A DNA stretch of 64,000 bases from Auanema rhodensis (taxonomy: Eukaryota; Animalia; Nematoda), in assembly GCA_964057225.1 (NCBI GenBank), contig OZ059894.1, positions 15,686,001-15,750,000 of the forward strand, read 5' to 3'. Positions 35,706-61,028 of the stretch are shown in pieces. How positions within the stretch are numbered: position 1 is the first letter of the stretch; every line of letters begins with the position of its first letter. The notes below the pieces were generated by a model. The model was not told where the DNA came from and did no database searches. It saw only the letters and a program-made list of their open reading frames with translations. The position numbers were made by a program, and so were the translations under genes.

Positions 35706-38700
35706 GTGGCCAAAAGATTCTCATCGGCTTTCCCAGCCCTTTACCCGTCCGATATCAACAGTGACGCTACTGTCGCAAGTCGTACCCGAAGCCGCACCCG
35801 ACTTCTCAGTGTTCAAATAGAAGAACCGCACCAACCAGACGAGAAGCCGAAGCCGCAAGTCGACAAGTTCTATACTCCCCGAGAAGGCACATATTCACCT
35901 TCTGACGACACTGACGAAGACCCGGACTTCATCATAGCCGACGACAGCACTCAAACTCCAACTACAAATCCCAAGGTACGCTCAGTTGATACTAATAAAA
36001 ATTTGCGAAAAATTCAAAAGAAAAAGCCGACAACCGCATCTGCCTCACCGGTAACCTCAGACCCAAACGCGTCGAACTTATCAGTTATCACTGATAACGC
36101 ACCTTCCCCATCCCTCGGGTTAACACAAAGCCCCCAAGCGTCTTCCACGCCTATTAATCAACCACATTCGCTAACTTTAGAACCCACCCAACTTAGTGAC
36201 AACCCTTCAACCTTATCAAAAATCACTGATAAGATCAAAAAGAATATCCCTAATAAGCGGAAGACAAAAACACCCAGTAAGCGCGCAACAGAAACTTTGT
36301 CAGCAGAAGCCAGCCTCGAAGGCATACAAGAAGCTTCACCCTTATCATTAACAACTGATAAGTTTAAAAACAAAAGATCTTTAACAACTCGACTGATAAA
36401 GATTTTAAACTTATCCCCAGGCGATAAAACAACACCCGGCGGAACAGCAAAACCCCGGTTTTCTTCACATAATCCTAATCTTAACAGATCAGATAGTGCG
36501 ATCCCTAGCTCACGATCAACTGATAGAACATCGCCTCAGGCATCTGGTAAAGTCATCCAGGTTCCAAGAGCCCGTTTCGCAACAACTACACCTATAATAG
36601 GCTCCTCTAGCAGAAACCCTAAGGCAATAGAAAACACTCATCAAGATCCAACAAGGAGCGAAGTGATAATATCACCTATCACATACCCTGAGGGCATCTC
36701 ATCCGAAATGACCGAAACATCACGGCTTCCAGGAGCGGGTAAATCTACCATTGCTCAGGCATTAAGCTCCCCATATTGCCCTATATACGACGGAAGTCGC
36801 AACTTTAGAGACTTCGTGGCCAAGTTTAACACCTTTGCAAACGCCTTAGGCTTAGTTATGCCAGAAAGATTAACAATCTTACCACTACTTCTCAAAAACG
36901 AACGAGCTGAAGAAGCTTATACACAGCTTAGCGATACTATCAAGACATCTGGCTCGTGGAATACTCTCATCGAAGAACTTACCTCTAGGCTATGCCCAGA
37001 GTATAATCAAGATCCGGCGCTGATAACGCTACAGAATTCCACCCAAGGCGAGCTATCAGTAGATGGATTTGCACAAACTTTACGAAGCCTAAGCTTAAAC
37101 GCTTTCTCCCATACAGACCCACACAAGGACCATATCCTTAGATCCACCTTTCTACGCGGTCTCAAAAACACAATACGCCCGGGGGTAATCAGAGCTAAAC
37201 CAAAAACGTTTGCCGAGGCAATTGATAATGCCAGATGGGAGGAATCAATTGCTAACCAAGTAGCCGACCCTCAGGCGCTACTGGTTAACGCAATCGATAG
37301 AACATTCCCTCCCAGGCGCGACACCGGAAGGCGAGGAATCGGCAGAGGCTATCAATCATTTAACAATAGAAACTACCAAAATTATCAAAATTATCAAAGT
37401 TATCAAAATTCATCAAATAATCAGAAACCACAAAATCTGCAAAATTCTTTCGCAAGAAACCGCAATCTTGGTAATCGCGGTAGAAATTTCTCAAATCCAA
37501 ATTGGTATCAAAGAAATAACAACTTATCACGTAATCAGGAGAGTGATAACCGTCAACGCGGTAATAATCCCTTCAGGGGAAACAACAATAATAGAGGTAG
37601 AGGAAGAGGCTCAAGAGTCAATAATTTGACCTTGATATCCCCCTTAACACTAGCAGTAGCTTTATCAGTGATCTTATCACTAATCACTATAACTGATGCT
37701 TATCAGATGTGCACTAAAGCTACAGGTGGAGCCCTCCTTATACCCCCACCCCTGAGGAAATGCACAATACCACCTACCAAACATGTCATTGTTCGAATTG
37801 AGCCAACAACAGAAAACGAATGTAGACTGGCTGTCCGCGACCGTAAATGGAAATCAGAAGACCTGATTAAATTGGATAGCTTGACATACGCGACAACCGA
37901 ACCTACATTCTCTCCAGCGCGCTCATTCAATTACGAACAATGCGAAGAAAAAGAACGACTGGTTTTGGAAAGAGGCGTTATGACCAGGATGCCAGACGAC
38001 ACCATATTGACAAATCTATTACTCAATACGGAAGGCTGTCTTGCACATCATGGCCAATGCGCATCCAATACTTCAATGATTATCTGGGAAATCCAATCAT
38101 ACGAACAGAGATGCAACTATATAGACATGAGCGAATATGATGCCATCATTGGAGACAGCATAATACTGATTCCCAATACGCAGTCAGCCCTTGTTATCGA
38201 CAATAAACAAATTCCAAAACAGATTACATCATGTTTTTCGCAACCTATATTTCAATCAACCACGGGCAATTATATACTCTTTCCCAAATATCCAAATGAG
38301 AGTAATATACACAACTTAATTGAAAGAGAATATAAAAAGTTGCCAGCTAAGCGTCAAAAAAGGGCTATAGCGCAATGCGCACTGCAATTGGACGAAAGCT
38401 GGATAAAAGAACAAGAAGACTACGAAACTTTAACATTGAACATATGCCCATACCCATTTTTACGTCCAGTAATGAGTAACCCTGGGATATCACAAATAAT
38501 TCCTATAATTCGAGCCAGACGGACAATAGATCCAACATATTCTATCGTTAAGTGGATCTCAGCACATCCCGAGCAGTTCAAATTCTTCCTACGAAGCACT
38601 ACTTCGGATAGATCAATAGAAAGATTCTTAAAAATATATGAATTCTACGACCCGGAAGAAGCAATGCTTCAATTCTTCGCCCAAAAAGAACTGGCAGCCA

Positions 38701-39560
38701 CCACAAGAGGAGCCGTTAAATACCTCACCTCCCTGCAACTCTTAGAGCAGATAGGCGACAGATTAACAGCAGAAGAATTTGACGAAAAAATACTCACAAA
38801 AGAAGGAAGTTATCGAGAGCGAACCGAAAGTATAGCGCTCGAGTTGGCATTTACACCGACCATTTTCGCTCAAAATAACATGTCGGTGCCATCAAAACAA
38901 GAAGTTTTGAAAGCATTTGTAAACATGCCGCCAATCAGGCCCGTATTATCAACTAATAACGAAAAGGAACAACTGATTATTAAAGAAACAATTGACCTAT
39001 ATCACCAAGTCCTCAAACTACGTACAATAAAACCCAATCGAACAGCGGCCAGAGCAGACGATGAAAGATTTCGACATCTGCCTGTACCAACTATTATCCT
39101 GCCAGATATAGAGAAATTATATCGAGATATGGAGAATAATTTTGGTATACCTGTTGGGCCCCATCAACAAACAAAAAGTCCTAACAAATATACACGAAAT
39201 CTTCTCATTCAAACCTTCCTACCGCTACTAGAGGATAAAAGAACACCTCCCTACTCAACCAGACGCCTGACAGACAAAACGGAATATATAACGACAACAA
39301 CGGAAGTAACAAAGCTAATCCAGGACCCTCAAACAACGCCAGAGATCGATACAACTCAAAACATAACATCCACGCGCGCGCCAACAACGGTTACATTAAT
39401 ATATGGTGTTCACAAAGAACAGCCTATTACTACGTTTGCAACGGTCACAGATATGTCTTTAAGATCGCAAAGAAAGCAGAGAACGTCATCACCACCTTTG
39501 GAGATTGAAACGAAAGCAGTACAAGCGCAAGCACATTATATAGGCTCCCAAGTAAACAAC
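35706..39560 (+). CDS. gag-env: Gypsy polyprotein, N-terminal part: S/T/P-rich leader, Gag capsid, N/RG-rich region, internal signal peptide, Env ectodomain; interrupted by the Maverick
   Basis: YDGSRNFRDFVAKF, QGELSVDGFAQTL, FLRGLK, PKTFAEAI (retrotransposon Gag); hydrophobic LTLAVALSVILSLITITDA|YQMC; Cys-rich ectodomain; basic sites KRQKR and RARR. Confidence 0.9.
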
Positions 39561-40650
39561 AGTAGAGAGCCATGCCGAATTTACTAACCACGCCCCCAAA
39601 CAGTTGCTAAAAACATACTTTTGAGGGCGTCAGCTGCTAAAATCATACTTTTGGGGGCGTCAGCTGTCAAAATCATATTTTCGGCGTCAGCTGTCAAAAA
39701 TATACTTTTCCTCCCGAGGCAGGCTCTCGAGCCTGCGCATGGATCAAAATGCATGATTTTTTTTTAAAAATTATTTTTTAATGTATTATTTTAAATGAAT
39801 TTTTATTATTTATATATTTGTTAATTGTATTTGTAAATATTTTTAAACTTATTTCTTTTTAAATGAATTTTTATTATTAATATATGTTTTAAATATTATT
39901 ATTTAATTATTTCTTTTTTAAATGTATTTTATATATTTTTAAAATATTATTAAAATTATCTCCTTTTAAATGTATTTTTAATATATATACATTTGAATAA
40001 ACTTTTTAATATATATTGTGTTTGTTTTAATTTATAAAATTTGAATATTTTTCAAAGCTAATAAATATGTTCACCGTACCTCTTATGGGTTAATTAATGG
40101 AACACATATCGAAGGTTAATTCGATAAGAGCGATATGAAATACAAAAGTTAATGGAACACATATCGAAAGTTAATTCGATAAGAACGATATGAAATACAA
40201 AAGTTAATGGAACACATATCGAAGGTTAATTCGATAAGATCGTTAAAACAGGTGCACTGACCCACACAAGAACCACATGGCAAACGTTTTGTTCATAAAA
40301 ATATGATAAATAGCTGTACACCACATGTACCAAGTTGTCTAATATTTTCAAATTACATGAAAGAATAGTTTAAAGAACCTTTTTTTTTTTTAAATTTTAT
40401 ATTAGTATATTCTAATATACTAACTCAATAAAACACATATCGAAGGTTAATTCGATAGGATTCACAAACAATTGTGTTGTTTCCAATGGAACACATATCG
40501 AAGATTAATTCGATAAGATCGTTAAAACAGGTGCGCTGCCCCACACATGTACCACATGGCAAAAGTTTTGTTCATAAAAATATGATAAATAGCTGTACAG
40601 CACAAGTACCCATAACGCTAAAGAATACTTACTATGCCAAGGGGTCATGG
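39561..40650 (+). repeat. Left TIR of the Maverick (near-perfect for about 200 bp, patchy to about 1.1 kb); partner about 55490-56261
   Basis: Reverse-complement matches, including ~30-bp GCGTCAGCTG subrepeats and GTACCCATAACGCTAAAGAATACTTACTATGCCAAGGGGTCATG. Confidence 0.9.
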
Positions 40651-41159
40651 GTATATAGTTTTTTAGTATCAAAAATGTTAATGGAACACATATCGAATAT
40701 CAATTCGATAAGATTGGTGAAACAGATACGTTGACCTACAATGAACCAAATGGCAAAGCACTTGTTCATTAAAGTATAACAAATAGCTGTATAGCATATG
40801 CATCAAGATTTCTAATATTCTCAAATTACATGGAAAGAAGAGTATATAGAAAAAGTTTTAGTGTGTATATTACTAATATTCTAATACCCTAACTCAAAGA
40901 ACACATATCGAAGATTAATTCGATAAGATTGTTGAAACAGTTGCGCTGACCACAACAATACATGCGTATTTATTAACAGCGGATTGGCAACTGCCACTGT
41001 TGACAGCTGTAATATGATACAATGTTGAGTGTTGGCAACATTGTTACGTGACAATAAAACAACTGACTGTTCTTGCAATGAAGTGTAATATAAATGTGTA
41101 AAATGAAATATGGATAACTACCTCTCAGAGTTTGCATAATTTTATTCTAACAAGATACA

Positions 41160-44100
41160 ATGGCTGCTAACAGGTTGTGTTTTTTCCTATTTTTTTTTTA
41201 ATTAAAATATTTATTTTCAGTTATAAGCGTGTATGTGAAGAGTTGGGGTTCGATTATGAGGAAATTTATCAACTCAGGTAATTTAACAATATTTTTAAAA
41301 TATACATCTTTGTTTTTTTTTTTAGTAAGCGCATAAAACTTACCGAGAGTGGTGGTGTTGAGCTGTGTGACCCCGCAATAACCACTTCCAATAGTGGTCC
41401 CTCGTCATCGAGGGTTATTGAAGTTATCACCTTGGATGACAGCGATGATGAGTAAGCTATCATATAATGAAAAAGCATGAAATTTTTTTTTCAGAGAATG
41501 GAATCCCGAGATGCCATCAACTAGTGGAGAACAATTAGGAGGCGGTTCATCCTTCAACGATGTTTGTCAAATAAAGGTACGAGCTTTTAACCTTTTTTTT
41601 TTTTTTTCATGTTACAATTCTTTTCACTCTATATCTTTTATTTGATTACATATCTTGAGCAATTTTGAATTCTGCCATCTATTTTTAAACAAATCATCAT
41701 ACATTTGGTGGCTTTTTGAAAAATAAAATAAAATCTTATCCCAAATCCATGCCATAATATCATTCATTAAATTTTTATTCATTAAAATACACTTAAATTT
41801 AAATATTTTGATGCTCAAAAACTGACACATTTAAATATTTTGTATTTTTTAAATCATTTCACTCCATCTCTTTTATTTAATTTCATATTTTAAACAATTT
41901 TAAATTTTTACCACTACTTTATAATTTTTATTTATTAAACTTTTTAATCATTAAATTACACTTAAATTTAAATATTGTGATGCTCAAAAACTGAAACATG
42001 AAATTGATTTATATTTTCTAAGCCATTTCACTTCATCTCTTTTATTTAATCACATATCTTGAACAAATTTAAATTTCTATCACTTTTTCATAATTTCGTT
42101 TATTAAATTTTTAATCACTAAAAAACATTTAAATTTCAATATTGTGATGCTCAAAAACTGAAACATTTAAATATTTTGTATTTTCTAAACCATTTCACTT
42201 CATCTCTTTTATTTATATATATTTTAAACAATTTTATAATTCTACTGTTATTTAATTTTTATTTATTAAATTTTTAAACATTAAAAAAAAAAAAATTGAT
42301 GCTCAAAAACTGAAACATTTAAATATTTTGTATTTTTCTAATCGTTTTGAAACAAACTAAACATATATTTGAAACCATTTCAATTAAATAAAAAATAACG
42401 ACTATAACAAACAAAGAGACATAATAATTTTAAGCAAACAAAGAGACATAATAATTTTAAGCAAAAGATGAAACAATTCATATATATTCTTAAAACTATT
42501 TTTATTTAAACTTTAAAAAAAAAATAAAAAAGCATGTAAACTGTTATAAATGTTGTTTATTATAGTGGTCACACCGGCGCATAAAACGCACCGGTCGTTT
42601 TACCAACGTGGTCGTTCGATCGCTCACGTTCCCACACTTGGAAAATGTTGATGAACCAATGCATGTTATCATGCCGCGGTTATTCAACGAATTCCTTGAT
42701 CGTTGTCTTGCTGAAAGCGGTGTGCCTGATAAGCAAAAAGCCTTATTTTGTTTATCAATTGAGCACCCTTCCTTTGAAAAGGGCTCCATATTTATGGACT
42801 TTCGTAGAAGGGAGCATCTGGATGGCGTAGCCATTATGAATGCCATCAGCAAGGTGCAGCAATCAAAACGAGAGGCTGTGATCAGCCAGGCAATGAATAT
42901 TGAGATGTATGTGTTTGATGAAAGGCCAGCGCAGCCAAGCCTGATGCCTGGTGAAGGTAGAGTCGGGTTTTATTTTGACCCCGAACTCAAAATACCTGGA
43001 ACCATTGCCAACACTGACTCACATTGTCTGGCTAGATCAGCAGTTGTGGGAATGTGGAAAGCTGACGAGTTGGCTACTGAAGATGGCGATGAGAAGCGAA
43101 GGCTGCAAAACCTTCGTCGCAATTACATCTTATTGCCAAATCAGCCACACCATATCAATTTATTAAATAGGTGTGGTATTTCTGTAGATTTACCAAATTA
43201 TAATTTAATTCATTTAAACATTATTGCCAGCTGTAATACAAACTATAAGTTTGTAGTATATGCTAGACCGCCTGGACAGCGTATGTACACTATCCAGAAA
43301 ATATTTAATGAAGCGGCTAGCAAATTGGTAACACTAGGTTACCGAAATAATCACTATGATTGTATTACAGCTGGTAGTCGTTCGAAAATTTTTGATGGTA
43401 TTATATGTCAACACTGTAAGTTATCTTACAATACAGTGTTGCATAGATGTAAAGCCAAATGTAAAAAATGCCACACCTATAATTGTAATGCGATGGGGAA
43501 TGTGGTTGAGAGTAGCGTGAGGTGTGATAGTTGTAGAGTTTTGTTTAAAACTCAACAATGCTTCGATAGGCATTTGCGAAAAGCCTGCCGAAAATTCAAG
43601 GTATTTTGTGAAAATTTAAAGTTGTACATAACAAGCTTAAATTCAGACATGTGTGGCGTGTGATCACTATCACATGGTCCGTGCTGATAGACCGCACAAT
43701 TGCAATGAAAAATTCTGCAAAAAGTGCGGTCAGACAAAGCCTGAAGAGCACTCTTGTTGTTGGGTTCCACCTAACGACAAGAAGAAGGCTCAGCTAAAAA
43801 AGAAGCAAGAAAAGTTCAAGGTTTGTATTTAACATCTTTACAAGTGTAATGCGTACTTGTTTAAGATTATATTTTATGACTTTGAAACAGTTGTGTTAAA
43901 AAACGGCACAAATGTTCATGAATATGCAGATGAACAATGGCCCAATATGGTTGTGTATAACAAATTTTGTGAAAGTTGTATAGATGCCAATTCCTGTGAG
44001 AAATGCACAACCAAGGAGGGCCATTTTGGGTACCAACAAGGTGATAGTGAATGGTCTGTAACAGATCGTTTCCTTGATTGGTTACTCAACTTTTCTGAGA

Positions 44101-46801
44101 ATGATAATGCAATTTTGATTGCGCACAACGGGTCGCGCTTTGACATACATTTCTTGGTGTCTAGGCTGATAAACCGTGGAATATATCCTGACCCCATTTT
44201 AAATGGGACCAAGATTATTAGCATGGTTGTCAAGCCTTTAAGAGGTCAAAACATTAACCATTTATGTTTTAAAGATAGTTATTTACTAGTGCCTTTACCC
44301 TTATCAGCGTTACCCAAGGCATTTGGTGTACCTGATATGAGTAAAGGACAATTCCCATACCTCTTTAACCACCCAATAAATTATGGCAAAGTGCTACCAT
44401 CCTTGCCACCAAAGCATTACTATTGTACTGCTAGAATGAAAGCAGAAGACCTAGCTTCATTCAATATTTGGTATGAGGAGCGTAATCAAAGTGTGTTTGA
44501 TTTTGATGAGGAGCTTCTGGAATATTGTAGGACAGATGTCCGTATTTTAACCAACTGTATGAAAGTGTACATGAAGTTGGCCACCGCCACCACTGGCTGG
44601 AATCCTGTCATACAATGTATGACATTTGCCAGTTTCTCTTTATTCCAGGCAAGTTTTTTAAAATACAAGCATTTTCAAAACTAGTATATTACAGTTGAAA
44701 ATGAACCACATTAAAGAGAACCAAGTGGGTATTCTGCCTGAGACTGGTTATTATGCCGGCCAGAAGCAGAGTATAATTGCCATAAAATACATAAAATGGC
44801 TAGAACACGGATTAGGCCGACCATTAATGCATAAGCTTAATGGTGGTGAATTTGTTGTGAGAGTAGATGGCCAACGCTATCTACTTGATGCTTATGACAG
44901 TGTGGCTAATCACGGCTATGAGGTGAGTAATTTGTAATAAATGTAAAAAAAAAAAATGAAAAATTTTGTAGTTTAATGGCTGTATTTATCATGGTTGCCC
45001 CCAGTGCACCAACAAGACTGCTATTGCACCAGGCAGAAATGGTGAAACAATGGAAGAGGTAACCAATACTTTTTTAAATCATTTTAAGCTGAAACATTTA
45101 GGTTTATGAAAAAACCATGAAAAGGCTTGAGGCTATTCAAAGCCAGGGCATTAGTGTAACCACTGTGTGGGAACACGAAATTACTGCTCAAATGTCATCA
45201 AATGAGCAAATGGCAAATTTTATGAAGGACACTGAGGTTGTAACTCGATTGGCACCTCGAGATGCCTTCACCGGCGGCCGAACTCAAACATATAAGCTTC
45301 TGGCCCAAGCTTCGGATAGATACTCACTAGAGTATGTGGACTTTTGTTCACTTTATCCATATGTAACGGCATTTGATGCCTATTACCCTGTGGGTAATCC
45401 TAAAGTGATTACTGAGGGCTTTGAGAGTTTTGAGGCATGCTGCCCATACAAGGGCCTTGTGAAATGTGACGTGCTTGCACCCACAAATTTGTTGTATCCT
45501 GTATTAGGAACACGCATAGGCGGTAAATTAATTTTTACAAACTGCCGCACATGTGCAAACAGAGGCAAAAATGTAACATGCCCGCACCAAGATGATGAAG
45601 ACGCTCGAAAGCTGCATCTGACTGTAACGCATGTAGAGCTCGAATGTGCCATACAGCGTGGCTACAAAGTGCTTCATGTTTATGAGGTTTGGCACTGGGA
45701 TGAATGGCAGCAAGGAGGCCTATTCAAGGATTTTGTACAAAAGTACATAAAAATTAAGCAAGAGGCATCGGGCTGGCCTAAGCCAAATATGACAGAGGCT
45801 GAAAAGGTATGTGTCATGAAAAGTATGGCATTAAATAGAATTTTACAGCTAAAATATCTCCAAGAGCACGAGGAGAACACTGGTGTTGCTCTGGAGAGCA
45901 ACAAAATTGAAAAGAATGCGGCCATGCGTAGCATTGCCAAACTACAGCTGAATAGGTATGTAAACTTTTAAAAATAAAAATTTACAAATTTGCTTATAGT
46001 GTATGGGGTAAAATGGGTCAAAGACCGGATAAAGCCCAAACCAAGATTATTGGTGTTGAGGATCCTGAAATTGGTAGGATCATAACTGATCCTGCAAGGG
46101 AACTCACGGGCTTCAAAATTGTGGACGATGTGGCGTACTGTACAACAGTGCCAGAAGACTCACACTTGGCACCAGCGCCGTTTACAAATGTAGCCATAGC
46201 GGCTTATACAACCGCTCATGCAAGGCTACTATTGTATAAGGCAATGGAGAAAATTGGAAAGAACTTGGTGTATACAGGTAATTTTATACTTTGTATACAA
46301 TTTAAACGTACATCATTTAGACACCGATTCTCTAATTTATTTAAAATGCCTCGATCAGCCTGATCCAATTGAGGATATGAAGGGTGAATGGTTAGGTAAA
46401 CTAACCTCAGAAATACCCGATGGTTGGTCAATGACCAAATTTGTTTCACCAGCTGCAAAAGTTTATAGTTATGAGCTAGTTAATGCAGCTGGTCAGGTCA
46501 AGTATATCACCAAGGCAAAGGGGGTGGTAAGTATAAAAATATATTATTGAGAAACTTTTTAAAATTACAGACGTTGGACCACACGGCAGCCACCGTGGTA
46601 AACTATCAAAGTATGGAACGATTGGTTCGAGGACTCGTGATGGATGGAGAAAAATTGGTTTTAAAAACCAAAACAACGTTATTAAAGAGGCAGCTTGGTG
46701 CCATATCCACGATGGACATGACAAAGAGTACCAAGGTCGTAATGGATAAACTTTGTTATCTAGACGATTTTAGTACTTTACCCTATGGTTATTGTGAATA
46801 A
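41160..46801 (+). CDS. pPolB: Protein-primed DNA polymerase B, 14 exons inferred
   Basis: Spliced frame gives IIFYDFET (Exo I), AHNGSRFD (Exo II), YCRTDV (Exo III), YEFNGCIYHGCPQC, YVDFCSLYP, KLQLNSVWGK and YTDTDS. Donors near 41174, 41278, 41452, 41577, 43601, 43821, 44649 (GC), 44923, 45059, 45807, 45956, 46278, 46528. Confidence 0.92.
41780..42470 (+). repeat. Degenerate ~155-170-bp AT-rich tandem repeats within the long pPolB intron
   Basis: TGATGCTCAAAAACTGA(A/C)ACAT recurs near 41810, 41978, 42145 and 42297; there is also a 31-bp duplication near 42407-42465. Confidence 0.7.
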
Positions 46802-49491: not shown

Positions 49492-49956
49492 ATGGAACTT
49501 TTATGTAACAAGTATTGTGTTACGTGCAAGGAAATATTTTCATCAGTCAAGCATTTTAGTGATCACATATTGAAAAGACATGACGGGATTCAACCCGTAT
49601 GTAACAGTTATATCAGCAATGCTGACTTTATTCAAAAATATGGACATTTGGATGGTGTTCGTAGACGTTTGTGCCCTTATTGTAGTGAAACTTTTGGAAC
49701 AAGATTCAATTGTCAGCGTCATATTCGGCGTCTTCATAATAGTAATGGAACGAATGGTAAAGATGGTGATGGAAATGATACCAGCAAACCCTCTGAAAAA
49801 ACTGAGGAGTTTGTACAGTCAACCGAACCAAAACGATGCCGCTGCAATAGTAACCGAGAATATTCACAACACGAGCCGCGCATCGAACAAAACGGCGCTG
49901 AACTACCTTTTAAACCTTCGAAAATCGTAATGTGGTCTTGTATAACTGTTGAATAA
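49492..49956 (+). CDS. C2H2 zinc-finger protein
   Basis: CVTC...F......HILKRH and CPYC...F......HIRRLH; TATA-like TATATAAAA near 49444; first ATG at 49492. Confidence 0.75.
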   Translation: MELLCNKYCVTCKEIFSSVKHFSDHILKRHDGIQPVCNSYISNADFIQKYGHLDGVRRRLCPYCSETFGTRFNCQRHIRRLHNSNGTNGKDGDGNDTSKPSEKTEEFVQSTEPKRCRCNSNREYSQHEPRIEQNGAELPFKPSKIVMWSCITVE

Positions 49957-49961
49957 AACAT

Positions 49962-50819: not shown

Positions 50820-50898
50820 CAGAGACCACCACCTGATGCGTGCACACTAGTATAAATGAAATCATTTGCATTATAGGTACATTTACGAGTGGTTGATT

Positions 50899-51546
50899 AT
50901 GGTTTTCAGCTTCAAACTACCCAGTCAGACAACTGTAATAGGGGCAACGCAATGTGGTAAAACTACCCTTATAAAACGTATATGTGAAAATACTGAAAAG
51001 TTTTTCAACGTCCCCATTGATAGAATATTCTGGTTCAGTCAATGTGGAGCATCGTCAGGTGTTCCATTAAATGATGAGCGTTTAATAGTTATTCAAGGAC
51101 CACCTGATCCGGATATAATAAAAGAGCAAAAGGGAGTAAACACCATACTAGTGCTGGATGATTTGATGAATTTTTTCTCATCGAATAAAGCGGCTAAAGA
51201 ATTACTCAACAACATTTTTACAGTGTGGGCACATCACTGGAATTTGGCAGTGTTTAATCTTGTGCAAGCTGCATTTCAGCTAGACAGGACCAGTCGAATT
51301 AATAGTACATATATAATACTGATGAAAAGTCATTCGGATATATTACAAATACGTAATTGTCTGCAACAATTATTTGGCCCCCGCTTTAAAAATGCTCTAG
51401 AAGCATATGATGATGCAATGTCTACACCCTATAGTCATTTACTGATTGACAACCATCCTTTAACAAATGAGAAACAGCGTATACTATCAGATATAACAGC
51501 GGAGCACCCTATTGTTTATGTAGCCAGAAATATATTCAGTGTTTAA
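50899..51546 (+). CDS. A32/FtsK-like packaging ATPase
   Basis: Walker A GATQCGKTT, Walker B LVLDD, HH.N, SRINSTY; first ATG at 50899. Confidence 0.92.
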   Translation: MVFSFKLPSQTTVIGATQCGKTTLIKRICENTEKFFNVPIDRIFWFSQCGASSGVPLNDERLIVIQGPPDPDIIKEQKGVNTILVLDDLMNFFSSNKAAKELLNNIFTVWAHHWNLAVFNLVQAAFQLDRTSRINSTYIILMKSHSDILQIRNCLQQLFGPRFKNALEAYDDAMSTPYSHLLIDNHPLTNEKQRILSDITAEHPIVYVARNIFSV

Positions 51547-51558
51547 TGTGCATGTTCA

Positions 51559-51867
51559 ATGAGTGGTCGTATTTTGTCAAATTACAACTTTTTATCTTCT
51601 TGTGCCAAAACCCCTTGTTCTGTTTCCTCATTTTCTTTTTCACAAATTGAAATTATTGTTGAAATTGTATTTAATATTGTGAAAAATAATAATTTTCTCT
51701 TAACTAACAAGGAATATAAAACCCTTTTGCCCATATCATCATTATTACGTCAAATAGCTTTGATACGCACACCCGAAAAGGCTAAATCTTTATTGGCAAC
51801 GATTTCACACAAACAATTGAAAACAATAGTTTCATGTGGAATTGCTTATTTTGGTTTTAAAAGATGA
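51559..51867 (+). CDS. Small Maverick hypothetical protein
   Basis: 102 aa directly after the ATPase; IVEIVFNI motif resembles the small conserved Polinton ORF found at this position. Confidence 0.6.
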   Translation: MSGRILSNYNFLSSCAKTPCSVSSFSFSQIEIIVEIVFNIVKNNNFLLTNKEYKTLLPISSLLRQIALIRTPEKAKSLLATISHKQLKTIVSCGIAYFGFKR

Positions 51868-52601
51868 AACTCAATCATAAATATCGTCTAATCCCTGTTG
51901 ATGATGAAACGCTGAATATAGACAAGTTTGATGCTGAATTGAAGCTCTTACGAGAGAATAAATCTATACCCGATTATAAAAAGGCTGAACTATACGAAGA
52001 CTTGATTACCCGTCTCAAAAATTATAGAGAAAGCATAGATGCGCCTATATCAGTACAAGTGGAAAATGCTGATCCACCATTATTGCCAGAATACAAGCTG
52101 CCACGAAAGTACAACGATCTGTGGGAAAGATTTCCAGAGGTGCGTACAAACAAAAATAACCAACTTGTGATTAATAATGAGCCCGTACCAAACACAAATA
52201 TTACAAAAATTTTGGATTTTGTACTGGATAAAACAAAGACGGAACCCAATGGATTCTCAGTATTAGCCAAATTCTTAGCCAGTAATGGGGTCTCTAGCCC
52301 TAACAAGAAGGCAAAAAATGTAGAGCCTGCCGTCAGTAACAAGGATTCAGTTGATCCCGTGCCTACATCCACATCGGCTGTCACAGACTTGGATGCTACT
52401 ATTAATATATTACCTAGAACACCACGTCATCGTAAGGCTGTTATTCGATATTCACCCTCTCCGCGTCGTACATTCAAATCCAAAGCTATAAATAAAAAGG
52501 CAAAACCCGCTGACACTGGTGAATCATATTACACACCTCAAGCTGGAGAAACACAGAATGGCAAAGGCCGTAAACGATTCTACATTAGATTATGGAAGTA
52601 A
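51864..52601 (+). CDS. Maverick hypothetical protein
   Basis: 245 aa, ATGA overlap with the upstream ORF, QNGKG motif near the C-terminus. Confidence 0.65.
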   Translation: MKLNHKYRLIPVDDETLNIDKFDAELKLLRENKSIPDYKKAELYEDLITRLKNYRESIDAPISVQVENADPPLLPEYKLPRKYNDLWERFPEVRTNKNNQLVINNEPVPNTNITKILDFVLDKTKTEPNGFSVLAKFLASNGVSSPNKKAKNVEPAVSNKDSVDPVPTSTSAVTDLDATINILPRTPRHRKAVIRYSPSPRRTFKSKAINKKAKPADTGESYYTPQAGETQNGKGRKRFYIRLWK

Positions 52602-53625
52602 TGTTTTGGAGAACATTTATTATAATATTAAGCATCCAGCTTCTTATACGTCTGCCAAAAATCTATTATTGGAAGCGCGAAAGCATGGCATCGCAAAAGC
52701 ACAAGTTGAAAGTTTTTTGCAAGACTCTGAAACTTTTACACGTCATAAACCAACCAGACTGCATATGCAGACTAAAAAGACTAGAGGCTGTGGTCGATTC
52801 CTAACAATGCAAGCAGATTTGGTTGATATGCAAAAATATAAAAAATCAAATGACGGCTATGCTTACATGTTGACCATGATTGATGTTTATACACGCATGT
52901 TATATGTTAGGCCTTTGAAAACTAAAGGTGGTTTAGAGGTTGCTACTGCATTTGAAAATGTATTCAAGGATTTTATACCAATCCAACTAATAACGGATAA
53001 CGGTGCAGAGTTTTATAATAGTCATTGTGAAAAACTATTCAAAAAATTTGCCATACTGCATGGATCAACAAGTTCACCACAAAAGGCGGCAATGGTGGAG
53101 CGAGCAAATAGAACTTTAAAAACGCGCATGATGAAATATCTCTATTACAAGAATAATCATCGATGGATTGATATACTAGATGACTTGGTCGAAGGAATAA
53201 ACAAATCTTATAATCGGTCGATTAAAATGCGCCCCGTAGATGTTACAGCAAATATATTCGTTGAAGAATATGCACCAGCTGTTCGCAACCGATTCAAAAT
53301 TGGTGATAATGTTCGCATAAGCAAGAACAGGCGTACTTTTGAAAAAAGTTACGAGTCTGGATATACAATGGAACTATTCACAATTGATGAGATTGTAGCC
53401 GGGAACCCAACCGTGTATAAACTTGTAGATTATAATGGTGAACGTATAAAGGGAATATTCTATGAGCCTGAACTTGTGTTGGCTACTAATAAAAGCAACC
53501 AGTACTATATTGAGAAAGTTTTGAAAGAGCGTACACGAAATGGTAAACGCCAAGTATTTGTAAAATGGAGTGGCTATCCCGACAACTTTAATGAATGGAT
53601 AGATGCAGAAAATTTAAATATATAA
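52558..53625 (+). CDS. Retroviral-like integrase with C-terminal chromodomain
   Basis: QADLVD, IDVYTR, ITDNGAEF, MVERANRTLK (DDE) and YYIEKVL...VFVKWSGYPDNFNEWI (chromodomain). Confidence 0.95.
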   Translation: MAKAVNDSTLDYGSNVLENIYYNIKHPASYTSAKNLLLEARKHGIAKAQVESFLQDSETFTRHKPTRLHMQTKKTRGCGRFLTMQADLVDMQKYKKSNDGYAYMLTMIDVYTRMLYVRPLKTKGGLEVATAFENVFKDFIPIQLITDNGAEFYNSHCEKLFKKFAILHGSTSSPQKAAMVERANRTLKTRMMKYLYYKNNHRWIDILDDLVEGINKSYNRSIKMRPVDVTANIFVEEYAPAVRNRFKIGDNVRISKNRRTFEKSYESGYTMELFTIDEIVAGNPTVYKLVDYNGERIKGIFYEPELVLATNKSNQYYIEKVLKERTRNGKRQVFVKWSGYPDNFNEWIDAENLNI

Positions 53626-53749
53626 TTTTTCACTGTTGTTGTAAACAATTGTATTAATAATAAATGATTTATTTGATCAATCGTTCATATTGTAACAATA
53701 AAAACCAGCAAAACATAAAAGCCAAGACAATGATATAACCTATAATTAT

Positions 53750-54770
53750 AAACTGATTAATATTTAAATTTTTAATGCTTACCAGTTGGTTAGAGAGTCG
53801 GCTGTTGATGGATAATTTCAAACTTCAAGAGCTGGAAAAAAAAATGTTACGGCTAAGAAAATTTAAATATAACATAACAAAATCAACCAACTGTCCATTA
53901 AACAGTTTGTGCTTGTTGTAGTCAAAACGATGGATCAAAACGGATAAGCATATTCAAGTTGAGCGCCTGTTGACTTAATTTAAAGTAGAACACATTCTGC
54001 TTATAACCAAAAGACTTGACAGTTGACTCATCAGTATAAATGGCAATGTAACCCATATTATTCAACAATTGTTTTGATGACATGCTAGAATAGGAACGCA
54101 TCTGTAAAAGAAAAAATAATAATTAGAATTAATAATTTTATAATCTCACATTGATTGTTGAATTTTCAGGTTTATAATGACGGAAAACTTTTAAAAGCCC
54201 TAAGGCATCATTCCTCGCTCTACACTTGACACAGAGGCTGAAACAGTGGTACTCGTCTACGACTTGCAATGTATCCCTACAAGTTTTGCAGAGACATATT
54301 GGTCTCATAACTACAGGCTGTTGTGGCGAGCTATCCTTTGAGATTTGTACCTGCTTTTTTGGTGTGTCTAAACAAAAAATAATTAATAACAAAAATAAAA
54401 CCTTACCAAAGAATGTGGCAGCAAAGTTGGGTCCTGGTGTGGGTGGTCTTGGAACATCCGGTTCCGGTGTCGAAGGTACAATATTCTCTACATCAACAAG
54501 AGCGGAACGCTTCATGTTTGTAGCCCAATTGGAGGCTTTTCCTAAACAACAACGAACTTTTACGTCTAGGGTCCAAGTAGAGTAGAGGAAAGTCCTAGCA
54601 GCAGTCTGTTGACGTTGGATCAGATCGTCGGCTTGTTGGCAGAGGTGGATCGGCGAGAAGACTTGGTGGCGGAGCTGGATCGGAGAGTAGACTTGTTGAC
54701 AGAGCTGGATCGTAGAGTCGACTTGTTGGCGGAGCTGAAATGCAAATTTCGGTCTAAAAAATTTTTCCAC
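53750..54770 (-). CDS. Spliced Maverick gene of unknown function; four 30-bp tandem repeats at about 54618-54737
   Basis: 210-aa ORF with a Pro-rich stretch and CxCxxC...HC..LC..C; minus-strand GTAAG and TTTAG/TTACAG/TTCCAG sites. Exon structure not resolved. Confidence 0.45.
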
Positions 54771-56267
54771 CTTTTATACAAACTTTGTTGTAAAGCTCTA
54801 CCCACTCCGCCTCTTCCACAAAACAGTTGACTGCTGTATGCGGCTTTTCTATTTGTTATATATTACAACAAATATATGCATTTATACATTAATTAGCAGT
54901 TTGTTGCGCAAACAGCTGCCAAATGCGCTAAAATACACCGATTGCGCCAACAGTTGCCGGATTAACAACCTGTAAACTATCCGCTTATTAATTACTTGTT
55001 ACAGCATTCGATTTCGTAAATCCAAATATTTAACAATAATTCAACTCATTTGTGACAAGTCCTTATACAATAACAACTGTCAGCCAAAATTGTGGAATAT
55101 TACAATAGGATCGTTTAATATTGTATTCATATTCTTATTATAACAGCTGTGGTACACTCTTACTTTTAGGAAACACTAATTCAAAATGTTGGATCCTTCT
55201 GAGGAAACGCAGGATTGTTGCGAAAAACAGACTTGTACACACCCGATTACAAGTACAACATTTCCAGACACTTTGTAAAAAAGAAACTCTTACAAAATGT
55301 TAACACATGTTCTAATTTTAAATGAAAATTTATTGTTCAATAAATATATTACGAAACATTTATTCTATTCTTGAACATAGTTATGAAATACATTAGCTAT
55401 CAGAACATTTATAAACTATTAGGGCTACAACAACAATTACTTTAAAGTAACATTTTTTGATGCTAAAAAGTTTGAAAATATTCGTATATACTCATGACCC
55501 CTTGGCATAGTAAGTATTCTTTAGCGTTATGGGTACATGTGGTGTACAGCTATTTATCATATTTTTATGAACACAACTTTTGCCATGTGGTACATGTGTA
55601 GTGCACCTGTTTTAACAATCTTATCGAATTAACCTTCGATATGTGTTTCATTAAATTTAGTTTAAATATTTATTACTTCTTATCGAATTAACCTTCGATA
55701 TGAGTTCCATTGATTAACCCATAAGAGGTACGGTGAACATATTGATTACCTTTTAAAAATATTTAAATAAATAAAAAACAATATATATGAGAAATAATTT
55801 ATTCAGTTTTAAAGACACAATTAAAAAATATATATATATTAAAATACATTTAAAAAGAAATATTATTAAAAACACATTTAAAAAGAAACAATTAAATAAT
55901 AATATTTACAAATACAATTTAAAATATATATAAATATTAAAAATACATTTAAAAAGAAATAAGTTTAAAAATATTTACAAATACAATTAACAAATATATA
56001 AATAATAAAAGTTCATTTAAAATAATACATTAAAAAATAATTTTAAAAATGATTTTAAAAAAAAATCATGCATTTTGATCCATGCGCAGGCTCGAGAGCC
56101 TGCATCGGGAGGGAAAGTATATTTTTGACAGCTGACGCCGAAAATATGATTTTGACAGCTGACGCCCCCAAAAGTATGTTTTTAGCAGCTGACGCCCTCA
56201 AAAGTATGTTTTTAGCAACTGTTTGGGGGCGTGGTTAGTAAATTCGGCATGGCTCTCTACTAACAAC

Positions 56268-59200
56268 GAGATACAATATACACAGAATATATCTCAGAGA
56301 ATAGCGCAAGATCATCTACAATATGCAACCACTCTTATACAGGAAGAATTGCAAAAGCATTTTATGGAATCTTACGAATCCATATGCGAGATACAAAATA
56401 GATATCTCGAATTGTGGCGTTCAATTCTCCAAATAGAGCCAACCATAGCAATGAGAACAATCCTTGGCAGAGAAGACATAGCAGCGCGTTTCGTGGGCAG
56501 CGAAATAGTTCATGTTCATATATGCCTACCAATAGAGCCTAAAACCGTTCACCACTCTCATAAAATCAATGAAACATGTTACTTAGAGACACCAGTAACA
56601 ACCGAAGACAACAAATTATATTTCGCAGCACCGGGATCAAGAGATTTACTCTCGTACGGGAAAGAAATCGACTGCGAACACGTACCAACTGATATTTATG
56701 AGAAAAACGGGGAATGGATGAACATTAATGGGTCTGCGGAAGTCAATCCCATCACACTTTTTGATGGAGCCCACCAACATAAAGTTACGCCTTTAAAATT
56801 TACAGGTGCTCATCTTTATACTAATCTTTCATCAAGAGTCTATTCAATGACTACCGCAATAGCGTATGGAGCTAGTTTAGCTTCAATACGACAAAATCAC
56901 GTACTAAATACGATTCACAACGACCCAAAGATAACGTCAGCCTTTATTCTTTTGAAAAAGGGCAGCGATTATATTTCGAAAGCAACTGAGTTCACAACTA
57001 CAGCCTGGAATAGCATAAAACAATTCTTAATGGGGACAATTGAAAGAACCTTAATATTAATAGGATCTACTGTTCTAATCATTGCAGCAATCATAATTAC
57101 CATCTTTGCCGGAAAATTTTACTTTTTCAAAGCAATGCCACTACCAGTCATGCATATTCAAAGAGCAGACAACGAGCCCCCAGGCTACGAGGAAACATTA
57201 GAACTCGTTAGCCGCCCAGACCAACCAATGCCAGAAAATATAATGAAGCAGTATTACCCGGCGCTCGTAACATTCATTCCACTAGCAATACCATTTATTG
57301 CTTCTATTAAATCAAAAGAAACAAAGCTACCACTTATCTATATATCAGTAGAAGATAAGCTGATATTAGCTTTATGGGATTCAGGCTCGTCAGTCTCATA
57401 TGTCAGGCTATCGACATTAAAATACCTGAACATGGCTCAACACGTCAAAAAGCGACGATTAGTGGCAATGGCAGCAAACAAAACAACGTTTACATTATAC
57501 GGAAAAATAAATTTAAACATCGAAATTGCTGGCTATGAGATAGAACATACCTTTTTGGTCTCAAATGACTGTGATTGCCCAGCCCCTGCTCTTATTGGGA
57601 TGGACTTTATGAGCACGCTCGACAGTGAAAACATTGATGTCAGTTTAAAACCATCGAAAAAGATGCTAGAGATCGGAAATTACGCACTCCCTTTAATTGA
57701 ACAGGACGCCATTAAACAAACGGCAATAACAGTAAATATCATCAATTTGAAGAAAAGAATCATACAACCCGATGAAGAGTCCACTATTCCAATCAAAGCT
57801 GATAGACCACTTAAATCAAACGAAGTGGTAATCTTAAGGGACAACGGAAATGCATTAGCTTCAAGTTATCCAACAGCTTTCCGTGAGACAAGTGGAGTAT
57901 ATGTAGTTTTCCGTAACAATACGGACAAAACATTAGCTATGGAAGCTAATTCAGTCATAGGGCAGGCAACAATAGGAGAAGTACCAAGCTGGCAAACAAT
58001 ACAAGAAGACCCTATGCAACCATATATTCCACCAGAAGCAGATTGGGAGAATAAATTACCCCACTTTCCAAGAAATTTTATGAATGACCTTAATCTGGAT
58101 AAAGCAGATTTGAATAATGAAGACAAGCACGAGCTCACAAACATAGTTAAGAACCATCGTGAGGCCTTTCTTAATGAAGATAGGAAGATAGGTCTATTTA
58201 AAGGACCCATTGAGCATACAATTCCACTAAGATCGGATATGGACATGCCAAGGTCAAGAATAACGAGGATTCCACTTGGTAAACAGGAAGAAGTGGAAAA
58301 GCAAGTAAAAGAAATGCTAGAGCAAGGCATAATCGAACCCTCTACATCCCTCTTCAATAGCCCTGCTGTGCTAGTGAAGAAGAAGGATGAGACATATAGG
58401 TTCGTGACAGATTTTCGAGCCCTCAATAGTGTCACGCGTAAACAAACATACGTTATACCAAGCATATCGGATATAGTTGACATGGCAGCTGGAGCTCAAT
58501 TCTTCTCAAACTTTGATTTAGTATCAGGATTTTTTCAAATATCACTACGTAAATCTGATCGTCCTTTAACAGCATTTACAACAACATCAGGCACGTATCA
58601 ATATAAAAGAATGCCTATGGGTCTCTGTGGAGCCCCTCATACTTTTCAAACAGCAGTAAGATATTTGCAAAGTAAATGCTCTTGCAAATTATTTGTATAC
58701 TTGGACGATCTGCTGATAATCTCTGATACAAGAAAGCAACACCTTGAAGATATCGACGAATTATTACATGCAGTCGAAAGCTTGGGAATGAAAATTAAGT
58801 TAAAGAAATGTGCCTTTGCTCAACCAGAAGTAAAATTTCTCGGATTAATAATTGGAAGAGAAGGAATAAAACCGGACCCTCAAAAAGTGGCTGCGATACA
58901 AGAATATCCGGCACCAAAGAACGCAACAGGCGTTCGCGCATTCTTAGGAATGGTTGGATTTTTTCGCAAATTCATTAAAGATTTTGCAAGTATCGCAAGC
59001 CCATTGTACGATTTGACAAAGACGGATACCGAATTCGCTTGGGAAAAGCAACATCAGGAAGCTGTAGATCGATTAAAAAGAAGTCTCACCCAAGCGCCTG
59101 TATTAAGTCCACCAAAATCTGATCGATTATTCATTATCGAGAGTGACGGCAGCAACATAGCAGTGGGCGCAGTATTATTGCAACCAGAAGATCCCACGCA

Positions 59201-61028
59201 ACCATTGAAGCATCTTCATCCTATCGCATTTGCCAGCAGAAAACTGGTAAAAGCGGAACGCAATTACGCACCAATCGAAATTGAAGCCTTAGGGTTAGTA
59301 TACGCACTGAATCAATTTCGCACATACATACTGGGAACGCATACTATATGTATCACTGACCATCGCCCTCTCACAAGTTTACTAACTCGCAGAGACCTAT
59401 TTGGTCGTCTTGCTAAATTTCAGTTAGTAATACAAGAATACGACATTGAGATAAGGTACAGAGAGGGCCAGCTCAATAAAGTATGTGATGCATTGTCACG
59501 TTATATAGGCGATGAAGCAAATGATGCAAAGCCGGAAAAGAAGAAAAAGAAAAACGCAGAATCGATCAGAATAAATACTATTGATACACCTGCTATAAAA
59601 GAAATTCAACAAAATACTCTATGGATAAAGAAAACAATCGCGGACATCGAATATAGAACGCAAAAGAAAATGGTCTCTAACGATAGATATTGCGTTATAA
59701 ATGGATTACTCTACACAAAACCAACAGACAAGAAACCACATCCTGCAATCGTTGTGCCACAAGATCATCCAATCAAGGACGAGATAATAGAATTATTTCA
59801 CGAAGATCCTACAATCGCAGCGCATCAAGGAATTAATAAAACTAAAGAAGCTATCCTACGGAGATTTTATTGGACCAACATGCAAAATGATATCATGATA
59901 TATATCAAAAACTGCATTAAATGCGCACAAAGGAAGAAGGACCCACATTCTATGACAGTACAGCCAATAGGTCAATTTGAAATACCGACCAAGCCTTTTG
60001 AACGAGTTCATATGGATGTAATGGGACCTTTTCCCCCGTCAAAAAGGAATTGTACTTACGTTATTACCATCCAGGATGCTTTTACTAAATGGTCAACAAC
60101 GATAGCAGTACCGCAAATTACGACAGAAATAACAATTGACAGATTTCTACGCAACTTTGTATACATATACGGACCGCCTCATCGACTGATCACCGATAGA
60201 GGATCTAATTTTGTATCTCAAAAGTTTGAAGAAATGTGTACAAAACTGGGAATTCAACATGAACCCACCCTTCCTCACCAAAAGAACTCAAACGGACAAG
60301 TCGAAAGACTACACAGAACTCTTGAGGAAGGATTAACACACTACTTGAAGGAAGATCTAAGCGACTGGGATAGCGTATTGCCGAAAATTACATTCGCTAT
60401 CAATAACATTCAGCATGCTACAACAGGCATAGCCCCATACGTAGCACTTTTTGGAAAAGAATGCAGAATGAAAATTGATGCCGAATTACCGGGAACCATA
60501 ACAAAAATCAAAGAGATTTCGGAAGAATTACTCACGAGAAGACCTCAAATGATGAAAATAGACCAAATAATACGTGAACGTATCGCCCAAAACCAAGAAA
60601 ACGCCAGAAAGAAGAAGGATAGAACACAAAGGACGCACGAAAGGAACATTCAACCCGGCGACATGGTGATGACAACAATAAAGTCACATAAAATTGGTCA
60701 GAAACTGAGGAAAAGCTATGACGGACCTTACGAAGTTATTAACGTACAAGGATCCAAGGTGCAGATAAGGAATTCATCAGGAAAGATACAAGATATCCAC
60801 AAGGATAATCTCAAACTCTTCTCAAACGCTACTCAAAATATCACTCACAATACCCGCTCTAATACACGCAACAATCACGAAGAAGAAGAAGAGGACAGCG
60901 ATATAGAGATACTAAGAGTGATCAAAAGAAACGAGCAAGATAACACCGATAGCGAACCGGAATCAGAGAACGAAGATGGAGACGAATTATGGTTACCACG
61001 GATGAAAAATCAAAAAGAGAAAGCATGA
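56268..61028 (+). CDS. env-pol: Gypsy polyprotein, C-terminal part: gB-like Env C-terminus with TM helix, protease, RT, RNase H, integrase
   Basis: EPTIAMRTILGREDIAARFVG..V.V..C and TCY..TPV (gB-like); TM LILIGSTVLIIAAIIITIF; LWDSGS; MPMGL and YLDD; IESDGSNIAVGAVL; HHCC, VHMD, TDRGSNF, NGQVERLH, YDGPY. Confidence 0.95.
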   Translation, partial: EIQYTQNISQRIAQDHLQYATTLIQEELQKHFMESYESICEIQNRYLELWRSILQIEPTIAMRTILGREDIAARFVGSEIVHVHICLPIEPKTVHHSHKINETCYLETPVTTEDNKLYFAAPGSRDLLSYGKEIDCEHVPTDIYEKNGEWMNINGSAEVNPITLFDGAHQHKVTPLKFTGAHLYTNLSSRVYSMTTAIAYGASLASIRQNHVLNTIHNDPKITSAFILLKKGSDYISKATEFTTTAWNSIKQFLMGTIERTLILIGSTVLIIAAIIITIFAGKFYFFKAMPLPVMHIQRADNEPPGYEETLELVSRPDQPMPENIMKQYYPALVTFIPLAIPFIASIKSKETKLPLIYISVEDKLILALWDSGSSVSYVRLSTLKYLNMAQHVKKRRLVAMAANKTTFTLYGKINLNIEIAGYEIEHTFLVSNDCDCPAPALIGMDFMSTLDSENIDVSLKPSKKMLEIGNYALPLIEQDAIKQTAITVNIINLKKRIIQPDEESTIPIKADRPLKSNEVVILRDNGNALASSYPTAFRETSGVYVVFRNNTDKTLAMEANSVIGQATIGEVPSWQTIQEDPMQPYIPPEADWENKLPHFPRNFMNDLNLDKADLNNEDKHELTNIVKNHREAFLNEDRKIGLFKGPIEHTIPLRSDMDMPRSRITRIPLGKQEEVEKQVKEMLEQGIIEPSTSLFNSPAVLVKKKDETYRFVTDFRALNSVTRKQTYVIPSISDIVDMAAGAQFFSNFDLVSGFFQISLRKSDRPLTAFTTTSGTYQYKRMPMGLCGAPHTFQTAVRYLQSKCSCKLFVYLDDLLIISDTRKQHLEDIDELLHAVESLGMKIKLKKCAFAQPEVKFLGLIIGREGIKPDPQKVAAIQEYPAPKNATGVRAFLGMVGFFRKFIKDFASIASPLYDLTKTDTEFAWEKQHQEAVDRLKRSLTQAPVLSPPKSDRLFIIESDGSNIAVGAVLLQPEDPTQPLKHLHPIAFASRKLVKAERNYAPIEIEALGLVYALNQFRTYILGTHTICITDHRPLTSLLTRRDLFGRLAKFQLVIQEYDIEIRYREGQLNKVCDALSRYIGDEANDAKPEKKKKKNAESIRINTIDTPAIKEIQQNTLWIKKTIADIEYRTQKKMVSNDRYCVINGLLYTKPTDKKPHPAIVVPQDHPIKDEIIELFHEDPTIAAHQGINKTKEAILRRFYWTNMQNDIMIYIKNCIKCAQRKKDPHSMTVQPIGQFEIPTKPFERVHMDVMGPFPPSKRNCTYVITIQDAFTKWSTTIAVPQITTEITIDRFLRNFVYIYGPPHRLITDRGSNFVSQKFEEMCTKLGIQHEPTLPHQKNSNGQVERLHRTLEEGLTHYLKEDLSDWDSVLPKITFAINNIQHATTGIAPYVALFGKECRMKIDAELPGTITKIKEISEELLTRRPQMMKIDQIIRERIAQNQENARKKKDRTQRTHERNIQPGDMVMTTIKSHKIGQKLRKSYDGPYEVINVQGSKVQIRNSSGKIQDIHKDNLKLFSNATQNITHNTRSNTRNNHEEEEEDSDIEILRVIKRNEQDNTDSEPESENEDGDELWLPRMKNQKEKA

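What the first reader, a model, noticed from the sequence alone, without database searches (positions are those of the whole stretch)
35706..61028. Single gag-env-pol polyprotein with a gB-like fusogen between Gag and protease
Seen: removing the Maverick and one AACAAC copy joins the two long ORFs in frame (...GSQVNN|EIQYTQ...) into 2871 codons with no stop. The order is Gag, internal signal peptide (~37620-37700), Cys-rich ectodomain, TM helix (~57050-57110), PPGY motif, a second hydrophobic stretch, then PR-RT-RH-IN. Known: retroviruses and errantiviruses place env after pol, and gB-like env captures exist in nematode LTR elements. The EPTIAMRTILGREDIAARFVG segment resembles herpesvirus gB domain III/IV. 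Inference: an enveloped Gypsy virus whose polyprotein threads through the ER membrane, or whose env is spliced out to make Gag-Pol. Related layouts may already be described in nematodes.
Basis: partly seen in the sequence, partly recalled or inferred. Interest (0 to 1): 0.8.

Follow-up and report, generated by a model that had tools for sequence, protein, structure and literature searches.

The report
Broken nematode gag-env-pol retroelement, known layout
This is a retrovirus-like jumping gene, likely from a roundworm, that carries a herpes-like membrane-fusion protein between its capsid and enzyme genes; the layout is real but already published, and this copy is broken twice, though it has an unexplained extra domain and unusual ends.

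Summary
A Ty3/gypsy element with identical 344-bp LTRs (33425-62070) encodes Gag, an internal signal peptide, a gB-like class III fusogen, one TM helix, then PR-RT-RH-IN. Pfam, PDB and an AlphaFold model of a natural Auanema relative support the fold. Nematode relatives carry the same order in one chain. This GAG-ENV-POL, HSV/gB-type layout is published for nematodes, bryozoans and flatworms (Chary and Hayashi, eLife, citing Sacco 2022), and this scan found it twice before in flatworm DNA. Contigs from other runs pass both sites without these lesions. Likely mechanism (inferred): a polyprotein threaded once through the ER and cut by viral protease, signal peptidase and furin. Splicing is unsupported but untested. 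Less ordinary features: a ~300-residue helical domain with no fold match in the furin loop, CG...CG LTR ends, and two insertions in a 98-copy initiator-tRNA array. Verdict: new member of a known kind.

The parts
33421..33424 (+). 4-bp target-site duplication, left copy (right copy 62071-62074)
   Evidence: neighbouring array units give the empty site
33425..33768 (+). 5' LTR, 344 bp, ends 5'-CG...CG-3' rather than TG...CA
   Evidence: 344 of 344 identical to the 3' LTR; ends
33769..33780 (+). primer-binding site, tRNA-Gln type
   Evidence: its reverse complement equals the 12-nt Gln PBS listed for Clat_errantivirus_4 and Ctro_errantivirus_1 in eLife supplementary file 1
35535..36707 (+). open 391-codon, Ser/Thr/Pro-rich N-terminal part of the frame with no in-frame ATG; start unresolved
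36903..37244 (+). Gag capsid domain
   Evidence: PF03732 E 2.7e-4 and PF19259 E 8.8e-3, both below Pfam cut-off
37305..37616 (+). Arg/Gly/Asn-rich nucleocapsid-like region without a CCHC knuckle, bounded by predicted viral-protease sites at 37284 and 37617
37617..37706 (+). internal signal peptide of env
   Evidence: hydropathy 2.29; h-region of 1.9 or more in 19 of 22 sequences
37704..38309 (+). gB-like domains I-II; 43 residues missing near 37787 in this copy
38352..38363 (+). furin-type site RQKR
   Evidence: a KR/RR-type basic site in this loop in 13 of 20 relatives measured
38370..39284 (+). inserted all-helical domain of about 300 aa, no family or fold match
39291..39482 (+). Thr/Ser-rich mucin-like stalk ending in a second basic site
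   Evidence: 35% S+T; the matching region of the relative is low-confidence in AF2
39561..56261 (.). Maverick/Polinton inserted in env, with a 6-bp TSD at 39555-39560 and 56262-56267
56307..56738 (+). gB-like domains III-IV
   Evidence: PF24664 E 4.8e-17, PF00606 E 2.5e-9; herpes gB fills the top PDB sequence hits
57027..57137 (+). transmembrane helix of env
   Evidence: hydropathy 2.92
57177..57188 (+). PPGY late-domain-like motif in the cytosolic tail
   Evidence: PPxY-like motif in 2 of 14 tails examined, this one and P0003
57345..57614 (+). aspartic protease (WDSGS at 57375)
58374..59441 (+). reverse transcriptase (YLDD at 58698) and RNase H
59769..61028 (+). integrase (HHCC, DDE, GPY at 60723) and the stop codon
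61727..62070 (+). 3' LTR, preceded by a polypurine tract
13465..17026 (+). second, internally deleted copy of the same family, with its own 4-bp TSD and CG...CG LTRs
   Evidence: LTRs 340 of 344 identical to each other and 96-97% to the main copy

Best explanation
This is a recently inserted, now broken copy of an envelope-bearing Ty3/gypsy element of the published GAG-ENV-POL, HSV/gB-type kind, likely from a nematode, whose intact relatives likely make one polyprotein that is threaded once through the ER membrane. Shown: domain order, gB-like fold, LTRs, PBS, both lesions. Inferred: Gag is made in the cytosol. The internal signal peptide sends the fusogen ectodomain into the ER lumen. The single TM helix stops transfer, so PR-RT-RH-IN stay cytosolic. 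The viral protease would cut just before the signal peptide, in the env tail and before PR. Signal peptidase would free the env N-terminus. Furin would open the loop between gB domains II and III and could release or loosen the inserted helical domain and mucin-like stalk. Capsids would then bud through env-bearing membranes, perhaps helped by PPGY.
For: Env fold: Pfam and PDB sequence hits. An AF2 model of the natural relative P0003 (mean pLDDT 72) has herpes gB in every listed PDB row (best E 2.8e-9) and nyami/rhabdo-like G and gB on top in BFVD (best E 1e-12). One chain: P0003 aligns to both halves (42% and 49%). Of 23 relatives scanned, 5 have gag, env and pol Pfam hits in that order and 6 more have env then pol; named ones are Auanema, Caenorhabditis, Acrobeloides and Pristionchus. 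Other copies: contigs in runs X1 and X11 leave the window exactly at 39560 with 503 and 1036 further letters, and contigs in all 4 runs break at 37787. Topology: a signal h-region in 19 of 22 sequences, and a [VI]N.[ILV] motif just before it in 11 of 22 against 2.65 expected. No consensus splice sites at either env edge. Published layout and matching Gln PBS.
Against: There is no RNA or protein evidence. The protease-site motif was picked after looking at the sequences, and its link to Ty3-type cleavage is recalled. A 1:1:1 Gag:Env:Pol ratio is awkward and no frameshift or readthrough signal was identified. PPxY is present in only 2 of 14 tails. No in-frame ATG precedes the first 391 codons. 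Several database relatives are gene models that may hide introns (P0015 and P0027 lack RT). Whole-model TM-scores to gB are low (TMq 0.14-0.17; pTM 0.44), because the insert and the domain arrangement are poorly placed. The letters that follow 39560 in the X1 and X11 contigs were not shown.
Confidence: 0.7

Rival explanations
1. Env is spliced out of part of the RNA to give Gag-Pol, and the single frame only serves env synthesis.
For: It would ease the stoichiometry problem; spliced env RNAs are usual in retroviruses and errantiviruses (own knowledge).
Against: No nematode-type donor or acceptor in 37200-37760 or 56990-57400. A conserved signal peptide, one TM and protease-type sites on the cytosolic side already make a workable single chain.
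Confidence: 0.15
2. The element moves only inside the cell. Env is kept for another use, such as membrane anchoring of assembly or soma-to-germline passage, or is decaying.
For: This copy has lost part of domain I in frame. Internally deleted derivatives without env exist and are deeper in all 4 runs.
Against: Ten of the 14 core Cys columns are at least 92% conserved and the other four are 76-91%. Copies in 4 runs keep the stretch lost here. This reading is compatible with the polyprotein model; it only questions infectivity.
Confidence: 0.2
3. The second hydrophobic stretch (57252-57308) is a true TM helix, so the chain crosses the membrane again and Pol must be made another way.
For: Hydropathy 1.68 over 19 residues, similar in P0003 and P0015. 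The eLife paper mentions gB-type envs flanked by two TM domains.
Against: It holds two prolines and ends at a protease-type site. The equivalent peak is under 1.4 in 8 of the 12 sequences where it could be measured, the window's included; two further rows were mis-windowed and are left out. It would put PR and RT in the lumen.
Confidence: 0.07
4. The gB-like sequence belongs to the Maverick (nematode Mavericks carry the gB-like MFUS-1), or the layout is an assembly chimera.
For: MFUS-1 is described in bioRxiv 10.1101/2022.07.12.499685 (passages).
Against: The gB halves lie outside the inverted repeats and TSD. Relatives hold the env between gag and pol with no Maverick. One X1 contig spans gag to the insertion edge.
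Confidence: 0.01

Closest known systems
GAG-ENV-POL, HSV/gB-type Ty3/gypsy 'errantiviruses' of Nematoda, Bryozoa and Platyhelminthes (Chary and Hayashi, eLife 2026, PMC13524379)
   Same: Gene order, gB-type env with signal peptide and TM, Ty3/gypsy pol, element size of about 12 kb without the Maverick, and the tRNA-Gln PBS of the Caenorhabditis entries.
   Different: No Auanema element is listed in their supplementary file 1, although file 7 as served counts ENV-POL hits in two Auanema genomes. The main text has no mention of a mucin-like or linker insert or of target sites. This copy is broken.
Non-canonical nematode endogenous retroviruses (Sacco et al. 2022, J Gen Virol, PMID 35550022; paper not held, title and gist seen only through PMC13524379; the continuous gag-env-pro-pol ORF and nyamivirus-like env are recalled)
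   Same: Env placed before pol in nematodes; the top BFVD fold hits here include nyamivirus-type glycoproteins.
   Different: No direct sequence comparison was possible. Whether they describe the insert or the CG ends is unknown to me.
Troyka LTR retroelements (Kojima 2025, PMC12440569)
   Same: 5'-CG...CG-3' LTR ends.
   Different: Troyka has 3-bp TSDs, CGCCA/TGGCG ends, a CCHC knuckle and no envelope, and the text has no nematode mention. Here the TSDs are 4 bp, the ends are CGTTC/GAACG, and env and GPY are present.
Flavivirus and alphavirus structural polyproteins (recalled; analogy only)
   Same: Capsid followed by an internal signal peptide, cut by a viral protease on the cytosolic side and by signal peptidase in the lumen.
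   Different: Unrelated class II fusogens and no reverse transcription.

Membership tests
GAG-ENV-POL HSV/gB-type Ty3/gypsy elements | gag, env, pol order between LTRs | tested here: met
GAG-ENV-POL HSV/gB-type Ty3/gypsy elements | env with class III gB fold and conserved Cys bridges | tested here: met
   sequence hits; fold of natural relative P0003; Cys columns. The window copy lacks two of these Cys.
GAG-ENV-POL HSV/gB-type Ty3/gypsy elements | ectodomain flanked by a signal peptide and a TM | tested here: met
   hydropathy only, no SignalP
GAG-ENV-POL HSV/gB-type Ty3/gypsy elements | Ty3/gypsy pol, PR-RT-RH-IN with catalytic motifs | tested here: met
   RT-RH 57% identical to the C. japonica env-pol protein P0012
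GAG-ENV-POL HSV/gB-type Ty3/gypsy elements | tRNA primer-binding site next to the 5' LTR | tested here: met
   Gln type, same 12-mer as two published Caenorhabditis entries
GAG-ENV-POL HSV/gB-type Ty3/gypsy elements | placement among the published elements in an RT tree | not tested
GAG-ENV-POL HSV/gB-type Ty3/gypsy elements | nematode, bryozoan or flatworm host | tested here: inconclusive
   host unnamed; all named relatives are nematodes
GAG-ENV-POL HSV/gB-type Ty3/gypsy elements | uninterrupted copies exist | tested here: inconclusive
   the window copy is broken; contigs of other runs pass both lesion sites, but none spans a whole element
Troyka | 5'-CG...CG-3' LTR ends | tested here: met
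   4 of 4 LTRs in the window
Troyka | 3-bp TSD | tested here: not met
   4-bp TSD at 2 of 2 insertions, empty site known from the array
Troyka | no envelope gene; CCHC knuckle in Gag | tested here: not met
   env present; no Cys in the nucleocapsid-like region

The most novel reading that the evidence does not exclude
This is a distinct sub-lineage of nematode gag-env-pol viruses. Its gB has gained a furin-releasable, ~300-residue helical domain of undescribed fold plus a mucin stalk, acting as a built-in receptor-binding or shielding subunit, which herpes gB delegates to separate proteins. Its integrase processes CG...CG ends, otherwise treated as a Troyka hallmark, and targets Pol III genes, a behaviour documented for LTR elements mainly in yeasts and social amoebae.
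Probability: 0.25. Interest if true: 0.6.

Novelty: new member of a known kind. Interest (0 to 1): 0.3.

Why it matters
The layout itself adds one family to a published class. The remaining value is mechanistic. The papers I could read do not say how a gag-env-pol chain is made and cut, and the conserved signal peptide, single TM and protease-type sites give a testable model. The helical insert may show how a stand-alone gB gains receptor binding. CG...CG ends on an env-bearing gypsy element would show that this signature is not unique to Troyka. tRNA-adjacent insertion, if general, would be a rare animal case of Pol III targeting by an LTR element.

Full report
Observation. The window holds an LTR element from 33425 to 62070. 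Its two 344-bp LTRs are identical. It has a 4-bp TSD, a PBS and a polypurine tract. Two long frames, 35535-39587 and 56193-61028, contain no stop where shuffles give 72 and 104 on average. Between them lies a 16,701-bp Maverick with inverted repeats, a 6-bp TSD, pPolB, an ATPase-like ORF and an integrase-chromodomain ORF. Both frames meet it on codon boundaries. Pfam gives weak Gag hits in the first part; the second part gives Monjiviricetes fusion (E 5e-17), herpes gB (E 2.5e-9, below cut-off), PR, RT, RH and IN. The best PDB sequence matches of the env C-part are herpes gB.

The proposed start 35706 is GTG, and the first in-frame ATG is 36708, just before the capsid. The copy has a second lesion. 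It lacks 43 residues of fusogen domain I that 20 of 20 relatives covering both sides have, including two Cys found in 25 of 25 and 23 of 25 rows. Contigs of all 4 runs laid break at 37787, and the X1 contig carries about 129 more letters there. This copy therefore cannot make a working fusogen.

One gene in relatives. P0003 from Auanema sp. runs from the end of Gag through env and PR into RT and aligns to both halves. A full HMMER search with the env N-part gave 36 proteins. I scanned 22 of them plus P0003. Five have gag, env and pol hits in that order and 6 more have env then pol. One (P0029) has a related env after integrase and DUF5641, which I read as BEL/Pao-like. The other 11 are partial or lack one of the hits. 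Of 20 looked up, the 15 named ones are all nematode proteins. Some are gene models that may hide introns. In two runs, contigs leave the window exactly at the Maverick edge and go on for 503 and 1036 letters, as expected for copies without it; those letters were not shown and no contig spans a whole element.

Fold. The natural P0003 ectodomain (964 aa, 39-row alignment) folds with mean pLDDT 72 and pTM 0.44: a beta-rich N-part, a long central helix and a beta crown. All listed PDB rows are herpes gB (best E 2.8e-9, TMq about 0.16). BFVD lists Beihai rhabdo-like virus 3 and Midway nyavirus glycoproteins first. The low TM-scores reflect the large insert and uncertain domain placement.

The insert. 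The linker between gB domains II and III is 18 to 492 residues in 20 relatives measured and about 440 here. It starts at a furin site, continues as an all-helical domain of about 300 residues (core pLDDT about 70-90), then a Thr-rich stalk and a second basic site. The named proteins that share the helical domain are all from Auanema sp.. No family or fold match was found (see Tried and rejected). Its role as receptor-binding or shielding subunit is a guess.

Mechanism (inferred). A signal h-region precedes env in 19 of 22 sequences. A [VI]N.[ILV] motif lies just before it in 11 of 22, against 2.65 expected; the motif was chosen after inspection, and its likeness to Ty3 protease sites is recalled. 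In the window's first half the motif occurs only twice, at the capsid end and directly before the signal. One strong TM follows the ectodomain. The second hydrophobic patch is weak in most relatives and would misplace Pol if it crossed the membrane. The simplest model is a chain threaded once through the ER and cut by viral protease, signal peptidase and furin, as in flavivirus capsid release (recalled analogy). Against it: no expression data, the 1:1:1 stoichiometry, PPxY in only 2 of 14 tails, and the missing ATG. No consensus splice sites flank env.

Known. Chary and Hayashi (PMC13524379; I read the abstract, section 6 part 1, passages, 30 of the 36 Nematoda rows of supplementary file 1 and a few rows of other supplements) state that elements of Nematoda, Bryozoa and Platyhelminthes carry HSV/gB-type env arranged GAG-ENV-POL. 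They credit Sacco et al. 2022 for the nematode case. That paper is not held; its content beyond title and gist is recalled, and it or its supplements may already describe features I treat as open. The PBS here equals the Gln PBS of two of their Caenorhabditis entries. A search for gag-env-pol with nematode, retrotransposon and glycoprotein listed only this work. Two earlier notes of this scan reached the same verdict for flatworm elements; they are not independent evidence.

Side features. All 4 LTRs in the window end CG...CG, which Kojima 2025 calls unique to Troyka (PMC12440569, passages); the element fails the other Troyka tests. The 171-bp repeat is an array of 98 tRNA-Met genes with initiator features (the initiator call is from my own knowledge). 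The main copy sits 18 bases after a tRNA end, and a second, internally deleted copy sits 17 bases before a tRNA start, both in the tRNA's orientation. These distances fall within the ranges reviewed for Skipper-2 and DGLT-A (PMC5911963, passages). But the two positions differ, the spacer is only 99 bases, and a Merlin-like element also lies in the array, so two insertions do not show targeting.

Verdict. Real, correctly read in outline, already described as a class. New member of a known kind; interest 0.3.

Noticed in passing
window 11278-33424 and 62071-64000, plus 863-1323: The 171-bp 'satellite' is a tandem array of tRNA-Met(CAT) genes with initiator features: 98 genes, 84 identical, running off the window's end.
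   Followed up: partly
window 33425-33768, 61727-62070, 13465-13808, 16683-17026: LTR ends are CG...CG with 4-bp TSDs, not TG...CA; CG ends are reported as a Troyka hallmark.
   Followed up: partly
window 13465-17026: A 3.6-kb internally deleted copy of the same family that lacks capsid, env and pol. Public contigs show much higher depth and several deletion joints over the shared 5' part, suggesting abundant non-autonomous derivatives.
   Followed up: partly
window 33407-33424 and 17027-17043: Both LTR copies sit within 18 bases of a tRNA gene, one after and one before; possible Pol III targeting, unproven.
   Followed up: partly
window 35535-36707: 391 open codons upstream of the first in-frame ATG; non-AUG start or an upstream exon unresolved.
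   Followed up: partly
window about 20612-22047 and 24601-26036: A Merlin/IS1595-like DDE transposon (PF12762, E 1.6e-15) inserted inside a tRNA gene and duplicated with about 4 kb of the array (99.9% identical).
   Followed up: no
window 39561-56261: The Maverick has pPolB in pieces and ORFs that look like capsid, adenovirus-type protease and ATPase genes (labels from my own knowledge); no gB-like MFUS-1 was detected with the env profile.
   Followed up: partly
window 3218-4084 (-): A 288-codon frame that looks like a piggyBac-type transposase fragment (by eye, not searched).
   Followed up: no
P0029: A related gB-like env lies after integrase and DUF5641 in a BEL/Pao-like protein, hinting at env exchange between LTR families.
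   Followed up: no
P0025: The C. nigoni relative has two protease-like domains and an extra H2C2 segment between env and RT.
   Followed up: no
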